Source of the DNA: a virus
Taxonomy: Duplodnaviria; Heunggongvirae; Uroviricota; Caudoviricetes
IMG/VR virus record: IMGVR_UViG_2541047121_000027
Direction: 5' to 3' (one strand)
DNA length: 12,870 bases
A program made the position numbers and the translations under genes. Of the stretch, positions 5,745 to 5,940 are shown in pieces (the first letter of the stretch is position 1; every line of letters starts with the position of its first letter). The notes below the pieces were generated by a model. That model had not been told where the DNA came from. It searched no databases and was given only the letters and a program-made list of their open reading frames with translations.

Positions 5745-5940
5745 AAGTGAGGAGCAAAAGCGAGGGGGATAGAAAGAGGGCCAAAATTAGCCCGCTCTCC
5801 CTCACTTTTCGACCTGTATACATCCTCAAAAGTGAGGGGTAAAAAAATACTTATGAAACACACACATAGAAAAACCGAAAATCCCAACTGCGACGAAGTG
5901 AGACGCTTGAAAAAGTGAGGCGAAAAAGTGAGAGGTTGCG
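5745..5940 (+). repeat. Iteron cluster, candidate island replication origin
   Basis: At least six copies of A(A)AGTGAG(G/A) directly after the rep stop (5745..5752, 5799..5808 inverted, 5827..5838, 5895..5903, 5911..5920, 5925..5936), plus degenerate AAAGCGAGG and AGAAAGAGGG copies and an A+T-rich tract at 5838..5880. Confidence 0.6.

What the first reader, a model, noticed from the sequence alone, without database searches (positions are those of the whole stretch)
5745..5940. Iteron array directly downstream of rep: candidate island replication origin
At least six direct or inverted copies of AAAGTGAG(G), with two degenerate variants and a flanking A+T-rich tract, sit between the rep stop and the next gene. 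This matches the rep-ori arrangement in which Rep binds iterons 3' of its own gene and melts an adjacent AT-rich region. It implies autonomous replication after induction.
Basis: seen in the sequence. Interest (0 to 1): 0.6.

Follow-up and report, generated by a model that had tools for sequence, protein, structure and literature searches.

The report
Replication origin of a phage-satellite island
The short repeats just after the rep gene are real and are almost certainly the replication origin of a known E. coli O157:H7 phage-satellite island (a PICI), bound by the island's own helicase; this arrangement is already published for this island family, so the finding is correct but ordinary.

Summary
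AAAGTGAG occurs 5 times exactly in the 12.9-kb window (0.26 expected), all within 5744-5932. Two one-mismatch and about three degenerate copies lie nearby. The copies form two sets around one of the least stable tracts in the window (5839-5868).

The window is the E. coli O157:H7 copy of the catalogued PICI EcCIRM12579, at the roxA/phoQ site also used by EcCICFT073. Its origin region is 260/261 identical to EcCIRM12579. Fillol-Salom et al. [quoted passage not shown]

New support comes from comparison:
- Copy positions are conserved in about 90 related loci across Enterobacterales, while the repeat sequence changes in concert within each island.
- The repeat type tracks one Rep residue, N442, at the N-cap of the recognition helix of a predicted C-terminal winged-helix domain: N with GTGAG, H with GTGGGG, S with GTGCGG, K with GTGGGGG.
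- This holds in near-isogenic pairs and across at least 5 switches, with two hybrid exceptions.
- Flanking proteins are shared with EcCICFT073, whose iterons are unrelated.

Rep is a RecA-fold (RSF1010 RepA-like) helicase, unlike the SF3/SF6 SaPI Reps. Interest is low to moderate.

The parts
4344..5744 (+). rep: 466-aa initiator-helicase. It has an N-terminal alpha/beta domain (about residues 17-123), a RecA-fold ATPase core (Pfam AAA_25, residues 148-315) and a C-terminal winged-helix domain (residues 405-466).
   Evidence: ORF. Pfam AAA_25 E=2.5e-43. RefSeq name 'helicase RepA family protein'. RSF1010 RepA 1g8y E=0.005. Foldseek hits RadA/Rad51 with probability about 1.0. AF2 model.
5556..5741 (+). 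Coding region for Rep's C-terminal winged-helix domain (residues 405-466). The recognition helix is 5670-5699 (F443-K452). The candidate specificity residue is N442 (codon AAC, 5667-5669).
   Evidence: AF2 pLDDT above 90 with an H-H-H-beta-hairpin topology. Foldseek top hits are LexA-DNA, DtxR/IdeR, MarR and ORC2/MCM winged-helix domains, with probability 0.9-0.98 and TM 0.6-0.7. Column 442 has the highest mutual information with iteron class.
5743..5752 (+). Iteron L1, AAAAGTGAGG (exact core); overlaps the rep stop codon.
5756..5765 (+). Iteron L2, AAAAGCGAGG (one mismatch); 13 nt from L1.
5769..5779 (+). Degenerate third left iteron (ATAGAAAGAGG). It aligns with GAGTGGGG or GATGAGG in relatives.
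   Evidence: Alignment. A weak call in this island.
5799..5809 (-). Inverted iteron (CCCTCACTTTT on the + strand). It forms a perfect 11-nt inverted pair with 5828-5838.
   Evidence: I2
5813..5822 (.). Conserved core CCTGTATACA between the convergent iteron pair. TGTATA(T/C)A or CATATATA-like cores sit at this place across Enterobacterales even where the iteron sequence differs. It is a candidate first melting or double-hexamer loading point (inference).
   Evidence: Invariant columns; representative origins. TGTATA/TATACA is present in 38 of 76 loci, and TATATA-type variants were seen among the 17 representative origins inspected.
5828..5838 (+). Iteron AAAAGTGAGGG (exact core); the right arm of the inverted pair.
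5839..5890 (.). A+T-rich tract, the candidate DNA-unwinding element: 69% A+T overall and 77% at 5840-5869.
   Evidence: Nearest-neighbour stability profile; top 0.7% least stable 30-mers of the window. Partly conserved as GTAAAAAA..TT..AAACA.
5894..5903 (+). Iteron R1, CGAAGTGAGA (one mismatch).
   Evidence: D3
5911..5920 (+). Iteron R2, AAAAGTGAGG (exact).
5924..5933 (+). Iteron R3, AAAAGTGAGA (exact). Its GAGAGG (5930-5935) also lies at Shine-Dalgarno distance from the ATG at 5945.
5935..5942 (+). Degenerate last iteron, GTTGCGAG. EcCIRM12579 has GTTGTGAG here, the only difference in 261 nt.
5945..6196 (+). 83-aa conserved protein (phrog_1231, function unknown), the first gene after the origin. 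It is followed by the island's SSB (6193-6603).
   Evidence: RefSeq annotation; Pfam SSB; phrog hit. It is 73% identical to the EcCICFT073 homologue although the iterons are unrelated.

Best explanation
The repeat array at 5743-5942 is the vegetative replication origin of a phage-inducible chromosomal island (PICI). This island is the O157:H7 copy of EcCIRM12579.

Proposed mechanism:
1. When a helper phage activates the island's rightward operon, Rep is made.
2. Rep's C-terminal winged-helix domain reads the 8-10-bp iterons (core AAAGTGAG). Residue N442, at the start of the recognition helix, contacts or selects the variable base.
3. Several Rep subunits occupy the left set (two or three direct copies plus a convergent pair around TGTATACA) and the right set (three to five direct copies).
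4. The intervening A+T-rich tract, the TGTATACA core, or both are melted.
5. Rep's own RecA-fold hexameric helicase loads itself there without DnaA.
6. The island's SSB and host priming and polymerase functions do the rest.

Shown here: the repeats and their non-random clustering; the conserved architecture; the concerted change of all copies within an island; the co-variation with Rep residue 442; the fold assignments; and the island's identity.

Inferred: physical binding, the melting site, self-loading, and dependence on host DnaG.
For: - Clustering: 5 exact copies against 0.26 expected, all between the rep stop and the next ATG.
- AT-rich tract: among the 0.7% least stable 30-mers of the window.
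- Island identity: int-alpA-...-DUF4222-rep-[iterons]-orf83-ssb-perC-capsid E-decoration D-terS between roxA and phoQ. The origin is 260/261 identical to the catalogued PICI EcCIRM12579 (Table S1 of PMC6092414).
- Published precedent: Gram-negative PICIs have iterons in two sets around an AT-rich region immediately 3' of rep, and the EcCICFT073 rep-ori supports plasmid maintenance only with both rep and ori (PMC6092414).
- Conserved positions with concerted change: the six 8-mers sit at identical offsets in seven E. coli islands. They are all AAAGTGAG or all AAAGTGGG, with 0 of the other type.
- Wider sample: in 71 Enterobacterales loci with clear iterons, the Rep column of N442 carries 1.58 of 1.68 bits about iteron class. 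N goes with GTGAG in 22/22, H with GTGGGG in 8/8, S with GTGCGG in 6/6 and K with (G/A)TGGGGG in 33/35.
- Near-isogenic pair: L090 and L091 differ only at this residue in the last 50 aa and have 6x AAAGTGAG versus 5x AAAGTGGG.
- Independent switches: N and H interleave on the helicase-core tree, needing at least 5 changes, and the iterons follow.
- Fold: residue 442 is the N-cap of helix 3 of a high-confidence winged-helix fold.
- Module structure: the rep core plus iterons is a mosaic module. The rep N-terminus, the DUF4222 protein and orf83/ssb are shared with islands that carry other Rep types. EcCICFT073 has a P4-type primase Rep and unrelated iterons (TGTCTACC/GGTAGAYA) at the same place.
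- Negative scans: no DnaA box, IHF site or sigma-70 promoter in the array.
Against: - There is no experimental evidence for this Rep type. The functional test in the literature used EcCICFT073, whose Rep core and iterons are unrelated.
- The residue-iteron rule has exceptions. L094 (N) has GAG iterons on the left and GGG on the right, and L096 (N) is mixed 4/4. L015, L023 and L033 (N) have ATGAGG rather than GTGAGG.
- Other C-terminal columns also carry 1.2-1.4 bits, because the sequences are phylogenetically related.
- Several copies in this island are decayed (L2, L3, R0, R4).
- Foldseek E-values for the 74-aa domain are weak (0.1-0.4), although probabilities are high.
- The Walker A motif is atypical (GASGSYKS), though invariant in 28 homologues.
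- No primase is recognisable in the island.
- The integrase 5' end is replaced by an IS, so the O157 copy may not excise.
Confidence: 0.85

Rival explanations
1. The repeats are mainly regulatory Rep-binding sites. They would act in autoregulation, in copy-number control by handcuffing, or in control of the downstream orf83-ssb-perC genes, as plasmid iterons also do. Initiation itself would occur elsewhere.
For: The last iteron overlaps the ribosome-binding region of the next gene (GAGAGG 5930-5935, ATG 5945). The first iteron overlaps the rep stop codon. Iterons in plasmids are known to have a dual role (general knowledge; review PMC4980987 listed).
Against: - No promoter-like site was found in 5500-6300.
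- No other cluster of the motif exists in the window.
- The array contains the AT-rich, low-stability tract expected of an unwinding element.
- The same position is the functional ori in EcCICFT073 (PMC6092414).
- A regulatory role would be additional to the origin role rather than exclusive of it.
Confidence: 0.07
2. The repeats are binding sites for a different island protein, and Rep is only a helicase recruited by that protein, as in RSF1010 where RepC binds the iterons and RepA unwinds. Candidates are the 83-aa protein just downstream, the DUF4222 protein just upstream, PerC or AlpA.
For: The ATPase core is closest to RSF1010 RepA, which does not bind iterons itself. The two small flanking proteins have no known function.
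Against: - The DUF4222 protein is 93% identical and orf83 is 73% identical between this island and EcCICFT073, whose iterons are completely different.
- Iteron type tracks residue 442 of Rep's own winged-helix domain through at least 5 switches.
- L003 has the same iteron layout but lacks ssb and perC downstream.
Confidence: 0.04
3. The repeats are packaging signals: cosB-like R elements bound by the island's Nu1-like small terminase or an Rpp-like protein.
For: The island encodes a Nu1-family protein (9730-10272). Lambda cosB consists of repeated TerS-binding elements (PMC6739421).
Against: - Both copies of the lambda cosN 12-mer, with about 48 nt of conserved cosQ/cosN flank, lie 3.6-4.5 kb away at 9585-9596 (+) and 10452-10463 (-), flanking terS.
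- The same cos1/cos2 arrangement is mapped functionally in EcCICFT073 (PMC6739421).
- Iteron type follows Rep, not the packaging module.
Confidence: 0.01
4. The cluster is a chance or compositional artefact of a purine-rich intergenic region, without function.
For: The region has a strong A and G bias on the + strand (AT skew 0.39-0.50). The motif contains a Shine-Dalgarno-like GAGG.
Against: - 0 of 200 dinucleotide shuffles reach 5 copies.
- Copy positions are conserved down to 49-70% Rep identity in other genera.
- All copies change in concert within each island.
Confidence: 0.01

Closest known systems
EcCICFT073 pri-rep-ori and the 'Gram-negative PICI replication origin' of Fillol-Salom et al. 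2018 (ISME J, PMC6092414)
   Same: - Same island family and same chromosomal site (roxA/ycfD-phoQ).
- Same gene order.
- The origin lies immediately 3' of rep, as two iteron sets around an AT-rich region.
- The rep N-terminal 125 aa (62% identity), the DUF4222 protein and orf83/ssb are homologous.
- The O157 element is the IS-disrupted copy of EcCIRM12579, listed in that paper's Table S1.
   Different: - The EcCICFT073 Rep core is a P4-family primase/SF3-type protein (TIGR01613). Here it is a RecA-fold AAA_25 helicase with a C-terminal winged helix.
- The iterons are unrelated: TGTCTACC/GGTAGAYA, many of them inverted, against AAAGTGAG, mostly direct.
- Only the EcCICFT073 origin has been tested experimentally.
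SaPI Rep-ori modules (SaPI1, SaPIbov1, SaPI5), self-loading helicases (summarised in PMC9371898)
   Same: - One polypeptide is both initiator and helicase.
- A C-terminal winged-helix domain reads short repeats.
- 6-12 iterons lie directly downstream of the rep ORF.
- There is a central AT-rich region.
- Rep-ori pairs are island-specific.
   Different: - SaPI Reps have SF3 or SF6 (AAA+) motors. This one has a RecA-fold, SF4/RSF1010-RepA-like motor, which by analogy suggests the opposite translocation polarity (inference).
- SaPI iterons on the two sides of the AT region point in opposite directions. Here all but one copy have the same orientation, and the single convergent pair lies left of the AT tract.
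RSF1010/IncQ RepA helicase
   Same: It is the closest solved sequence relative of the ATPase core (1g8y), and the RefSeq name is 'helicase RepA family'.
   Different: IncQ uses three proteins: RepC binds 20-bp iterons, RepA unwinds, and RepB' primes at ssi sites (general knowledge). Here a winged helix is fused to the helicase. Pfam (10 ORFs), NCBIfam and PHROG scans of a subset, and the RefSeq annotation show no RepC or RepB' gene in the window.
Satellite phage P4 alpha protein with ori/crr
   Same: It is a satellite of an enterobacterial phage with a multifunctional replication protein whose C-terminal domain binds octamer repeats (general knowledge; discussed in PMC6092414).
   Different: P4 alpha is a primase plus an SF3 helicase. 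Its repeats (TGTTCACC) are split between ori and crr, several kb apart. This Rep has no match to the P4 primase family.
Classical iteron plasmids (pPS10, F, R6K, RK2)
   Same: Directly repeated initiator-binding sites next to an AT-rich unwinding element, read by winged-helix domains.
   Different: - Plasmid iterons are 17-22 bp at roughly 22-bp spacing and work together with DnaA boxes and DnaB/DnaC loading (general knowledge; PMC4980987).
- Here the iterons are 8-10 bp at 13-17-bp spacing.
- There is no DnaA box here.
- The initiator here carries its own helicase.

Membership tests
PICI (Gram-negative lineage, EcCICFT073-like) | An island of about 11 kb at a PICI-specific att site, transcribed unidirectionally, with int, alpA, rep and phage-interference/packaging genes, but without lysis or tail genes. 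| tested here: met
   Annotation of the identical O157 region and of EcCIRM12579/EcCICFT073; Pfam hits; site roxA-phoQ as in Table S1 of PMC6092414.
PICI/SaPI-type rep-ori module | The iteron array starts immediately 3' of the rep ORF. | tested here: met
   The first iteron overlaps the rep stop codon, and the array fills the 200-nt gap to the next gene.
PICI/SaPI-type rep-ori module | Two sets of iterons flank an AT-rich region. | tested here: met
   The left set spans 5743-5838 and the right set 5894-5942. The tract between them is 69-77% A+T and in the 0.7% least stable 30-mers.
PICI/SaPI-type rep-ori module | [quoted passage not shown] | tested here: not met
   Only the copy at 5801 is inverted. 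The copies on both sides of the AT tract are otherwise co-oriented. The same holds in relatives.
PICI/SaPI-type rep-ori module | Rep carries a C-terminal winged-helix origin-binding domain. | tested here: met
   AF2 pLDDT above 90 for residues 405-466. The top Foldseek hits are all winged-helix DNA binders. This is in silico only.
PICI/SaPI-type rep-ori module | Rep-ori pairs are specific: the iteron sequence matches the cognate Rep. | tested here: met
   Co-variation of residue 442 with the iteron core in 71 loci, in near-isogenic pairs and across at least 5 switches. Two hybrid origins are exceptions.
PICI/SaPI-type rep-ori module | Rep binds and melts the ori, and rep+ori drives autonomous replication. 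| not testable with these tools
   Experimental evidence exists only for EcCICFT073 and the SaPIs (PMC6092414, PMC9371898).
SaPI Rep helicases (SF3/SF6 AAA+) | The ATPase is of the SF3 or MCM-like AAA+ class. | tested here: not met
   Pfam AAA_25; weak NCBIfam hits to RadA; PDB sequence hit to RSF1010 RepA; Foldseek hits to RadA/Rad51. All indicate a RecA fold.
IncQ (RSF1010) replicon | A separate RepC iteron-binding initiator and a RepB' primase with ssi sites. | tested here: not met
   No such genes appear in the RefSeq annotation of the island or among the ORFs scanned with Pfam, NCBIfam and PHROGs. The DNA-binding domain is fused to the helicase.
Classical iteron plasmid origin | DnaA boxes, and usually IHF sites, next to 17-22-bp iterons. 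| tested here: not met
   No DnaA-box or IHF-consensus match, even with one mismatch, inside 5745-5940. The iteron core is 8-10 bp.
Lambda-type cosB | TerS-binding repeats lie adjacent to cosN. | tested here: not met
   The cosN copies are at 9585 and 10452, not near the array.

The most novel reading that the evidence does not exclude
This is a so far uncharacterised class of PICI initiator: a RecA-fold (SF4-like) self-loading helicase fused to a winged helix. Its origin specificity would be set largely by one residue at the N-cap of the recognition helix (N gives GTGAG, H gives GTGGGG, S gives GTGCGG, K gives GTGGGGG). This simple, switchable Rep-ori 'code' would split enterobacterial satellites into replication-specificity groups. 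The conserved convergent iteron pair around TGTATACA would be the site where two hexamers load.
Probability: 0.4. Interest if true: 0.5.

Novelty: already known. Interest (0 to 1): 0.28.

Why it matters
The array marks where this O157:H7 satellite would start copying itself when a helper phage (lambda/phi80-like, to judge from its cos sites) is induced. That replication step amplifies the island and its perC-type regulator gene. For annotation, it shows that the 200-nt gap after 'helicase RepA family protein' genes in hundreds of E. coli genomes and many other Enterobacterales is an origin. The comparison also gives a testable specificity rule (Rep residue 442 against the variable iteron base) that could be used to build orthogonal PICI replicons. 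The basic finding itself repeats published knowledge of PICI origins.

Tried and rejected
- Promoter and terminator scan of 5500-6300: no sigma-70-like promoter. It found only a weak 6-bp hairpin on the minus strand (5778-5793), which is not conserved in relatives.
- DnaA-box and IHF consensus scans: nothing inside the array, and window-wide counts are at chance level.
- Rfam (gathering threshold) and tRNA scans: only the IS3 ALIL pseudoknot at 1-105, nothing near the origin.
- cosB/TerS-site hypothesis: rejected once the two cos sites were found at about 9.6 and 10.5 kb.
- Foldseek with the full-length Rep model (pTM 0.45, low confidence in 311-394): it confirmed only the RecA-like core, and the top-ranked hits were meaningless. 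The C-terminal domain was therefore remodelled alone.
- NCBIfam gave only sub-threshold RadA hits for Rep and nothing for the two small flanking proteins.
- Literature search for a study of RepA/AAA_25-type PICI origins: none found in the held library. Fig. 2a of PMC6092414, which draws several E. coli PICI origins, is not held, so I could not check whether this exact array is drawn there.

Full report
**1. The observation**

The sequence at 5740-5945 contains AAAGTGAG five times exactly: 5744+, 5801-, 5829+, 5912+ and 5925+. Dinucleotide-preserving shuffles of the whole 12,870-nt window give 0.26 matches on average and never more than 2. There is no exact copy anywhere else in the window. Allowing one mismatch adds AAAGCGAG (5757) and GAAGTGAG (5895). 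The other eight one-mismatch hits are scattered at chance density.

The repeat finder recovers the families with their flanks (AAAAGTGAGG...). It also finds a perfect 11-nt inverted pair, CCCTCACTTTT / AAAAGTGAGGG, at 5799-5809 and 5828-5838. Alignment with relatives reveals three further decayed copies, at about 5769-5779, 5883-5893 and 5935-5942.

The first copy overlaps the rep stop codon (TAA 5742-5744). The array ends 3 nt before the ATG of the next gene (5945).

Between the copy at 5829 and the copy at 5895 lies an A+T-rich tract. It is 69% A+T over 5839-5890 and 77% over 5840-5869. Its 30-mer 5839-5868 is among the 0.7% least stable in the window.

There are five exact 8-mers (six for the 7-mer AAGTGAG), and the AT-rich tract sits inside the array rather than beside it.

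**2. What the window is**

The segment is 100% identical to many E. coli O157:H7 chromosomes. There the region lies between roxA (ycfD) and phoQ and is annotated as follows:
- IS3-family transposase
- tyrosine recombinase
- HTH (AlpA-type) regulator
- Icd-like genes
- small hypothetical proteins
- DUF4222 protein
- 'helicase RepA family protein'
- [gap]
- hypothetical protein
- SSB
- PerC
- major capsid protein
- head decoration protein
- hypothetical protein
- small terminase
- hypothetical protein

Pfam agrees on AAA_25, SSB, PerC, Phage_cap_E, HDPD, Phage_Nu1 and DUF4222.

The same site and gene order are those of EcCICFT073 and of EcCIRM12579 (O55:H7). Both are listed as PICIs in Table S1 of Fillol-Salom et al. 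2018. The window's 5700-5960 is 260/261 identical to EcCIRM12579, and the single difference lies in the last, degenerate repeat.

That paper makes four relevant statements:
- This organisation is shared by all the PICIs it identified.
- The EcCICFT073 rep-ori segment supports maintenance of a temperature-sensitive plasmid.
- That maintenance needs both rep and ori.

**3. Comparative test of the repeats**

*Close relatives.* Seven E. coli islands whose rep-ori segments are 76-92% identical to the window were aligned. The six best 8-mers lie at the same offsets in all of them: 0, 13, 57 (inverted), 85, 168 and 181. The word, however, is AAAGTGAG in two islands and AAAGTGGG in five. Each island has none of the other type. 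All copies change in concert, as expected for sites read by one protein.

*Wider sample.* A scan of one genome per species found 80 loci encoding Rep relatives of 49-72% identity. They come from Xenorhabdus, Pectobacterium, Serratia, Morganella, Pantoea, Kosakonia, Citrobacter and others. In most of these loci (71 of the 79 analysed have one iteron word in at least four copies) the 300 nt after rep show the same layout:
- two or three direct copies at the stop codon;
- a spacer of about 25 nt;
- one inverted copy;
- a short TGTATA(T/C)A- or CATATATA-like core;
- one direct copy;
- about 50 nt, AT-rich in the window and its close relatives;
- three to five direct copies.

The word differs by lineage: GTGAGGA, GTGGGGA, GTGCGGC or GTGGGGGA.

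**4. Who reads them**

*Domain structure of Rep (466 aa).*
- The core is RecA-fold. The evidence is Pfam AAA_25 at residues 148-315, a weak sequence hit to the RSF1010 RepA helicase 1g8y, and Foldseek hits to RadA/Rad51.
- The N-terminal 125 aa are 62% identical to the N-terminus of the otherwise unrelated P4-type primase Rep of EcCICFT073.
- The C-terminal domain (residues 405-466) is modelled with pLDDT above 90 as three helices plus a beta-hairpin.
- The best structural matches of that domain are winged-helix DNA binders: the LexA-DNA complex, DtxR/IdeR, MarR and the ORC2/MCM winged helices. Probabilities are 0.9-0.98 and TM scores 0.6-0.7. E-values are weak, as is usual for a 74-residue query.

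*Co-variation.* Among 71 loci with clear iterons, the alignment column of N442 carries 1.58 of the 1.68 bits needed to predict the iteron class. N442 is the residue just before recognition helix F443-K452. This is the highest value of any C-terminal column.

| Residue at 442 | Iteron core | Loci |
|---|---|---|
| N | GTGAG | 22/22 |
| H | GTGGGG | 8/8 |
| S | GTGCGG | 6/6 |
| K | (G/A)TGGGGG | 33/35 |

*Control for shared ancestry.* Related sequences inflate such numbers, so near-isogenic cases were fetched.
- P0047 (L090) and P0004 (L091) differ in their last 50 residues only at this position. They have 6x AAAGTGAG and 5x AAAGTGGG respectively.
- L092 (N) and L093 (H) behave the same way.
- On a tree of the helicase core alone, N and H interleave and need at least five changes. 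The iterons follow each time.

*Exceptions.*
- L094 (N) has GAG copies on the left and GGG copies on the right.
- L096 (N) is mixed.
- Three Xenorhabdus loci with N have ATGAGG.

So the residue is a strong determinant, or partner, of specificity, but not the whole story.

*Flanking proteins.* The DUF4222 protein (93% identical) and the 83-aa downstream protein (73% identical) are shared with EcCICFT073. That island's iterons (TGTCTACC/GGTAGAYA) are unrelated. These proteins are therefore not the readers.

**5. Rivals**

- *Packaging signals.* These are excluded. The lambda cosN 12-mer GGGCGGCGACCT occurs twice, at 9585 (+) and 10452 (-), flanking terS, with about 48 nt of shared flank. EcCICFT073 has the same pair, known there as cos1 and cos2 (PMC6739421).
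- *DnaA, IHF or promoter elements.* No DnaA box, IHF site or sigma-70 promoter lies in the array.
- *Structured RNA.* Rfam and tRNA scans find nothing there.
- *Regulation.* A purely regulatory role cannot be excluded, but it would be additional to the origin role. The last iteron does overlap the Shine-Dalgarno region of the next gene.

**6. Mechanism**

Most likely (confidence about 0.85), this is the island's origin. Rep's winged-helix domains bind the two iteron sets. The intervening AT tract, the TGTATACA core between the convergent pair, or both are opened. Rep's own hexameric motor loads there without DnaA. The island's SSB and host enzymes then complete replication.

Shown here are the anatomy, the conservation, the concerted change, the Rep-iteron co-variation and the folds. 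Inferred are binding, the melting site, self-loading and host priming.

**7. Comparison with what is known, and novelty**

It works like the SaPI and EcCICFT073 rep-ori modules, and it belongs to the Gram-negative PICI family. It differs from the characterised cases in two respects:
- The motor class is RecA/SF4-like rather than SF3/SF6.
- The iterons are nearly all co-oriented.

The arrangement, and indeed this island, are already in the literature, so the finding is rated 'already known' with low to moderate interest. The residue-442 rule and the RecA-fold initiator class are the parts that would be new if confirmed experimentally.

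Noticed in passing
window 9585-9596 (+) and 10452-10463 (-): There are two exact copies of the lambda cosN 12-mer GGGCGGCGACCT in inverted orientation, flanking the Nu1-like terS gene. They share about 48 nt of cosQ/cosN flank and then diverge on the cosB side. EcCICFT073 has the same pair (L008 10559+, 11298-), published as cos1/cos2.
   Followed up: partly
window 1-440: An IS3-family element (orfA 60-386 on the minus strand; ALIL frameshift pseudoknot 1-105) abuts the integrase. Identity to the intact EcCIRM12579 int begins only at about window 440. The first 65 nt or so of int, its promoter and the left attachment side are therefore displaced, and the O157 copy may be unable to excise.
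   Followed up: partly
window 4344-4735 (Rep residues 1-125): The Rep N-terminal alpha/beta domain is shared (62% aa identity; 77-86% nt identity in many genomes) with PICI Reps that have entirely different cores (P4-type primase, DUF927). It also matches a segment of phage 'DNA primase' phrog_864. It is a mobile adaptor-like domain of unknown role. Some relatives (e.g. Xenorhabdus, Pectobacterium) have reading frames of about 680-730 codons (measured stop to stop), apparently with a longer N-terminal region.
   Followed up: partly
window 5813-5822, and the same place in L003-L097: A short TGTATA(T/C)A / CATATATA core is conserved between the convergent iteron pair across Enterobacterales, even where the iteron word differs. 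It gives a two-fold symmetric unit (iteron - about 8 nt - core - about 8 nt - iteron).
   Followed up: partly
L094 (E. albertii) and L096 (Salmonella), the 215 nt after rep: These are hybrid origins. L094 has GAG-type iterons left of the AT tract and GGG-type on the right. L096 has the two types interleaved. Both have N at the specificity position. This suggests recombination within origins, or relaxed reading by Asn.
   Followed up: no
window 9730-10272: A 180-aa Nu1-family 'small terminase' sits where EcCICFT073 encodes the 144-aa RppA, which redirects the helper's TerS. Whether it is a true TerS or an Rpp-like hijacker was not examined.
   Followed up: no
window 9111-9524: A 137-aa protein downstream of the capsid E and decoration D genes matches the C-terminal part of head-maturation-protease phrog_53 (E=4.7e-9). 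That is the position of a lambda Nu3-like scaffold, so the island may carry capsid, decoration and scaffold genes.
   Followed up: no
window 4848-4871 (Rep residues 169-176): The Walker A-like motif reads GASGSYKS, with Tyr where the canonical GK[ST] motif has Gly. Seven of its eight residues are invariant in 28 homologues (A170 is not).
   Followed up: no
window 2213-3157: This stretch is annotated in RefSeq as a partial Icd-like pseudogene. It has a strong negative AT skew (-0.32 at 2401-2850), unlike the rest of the island.
   Followed up: no
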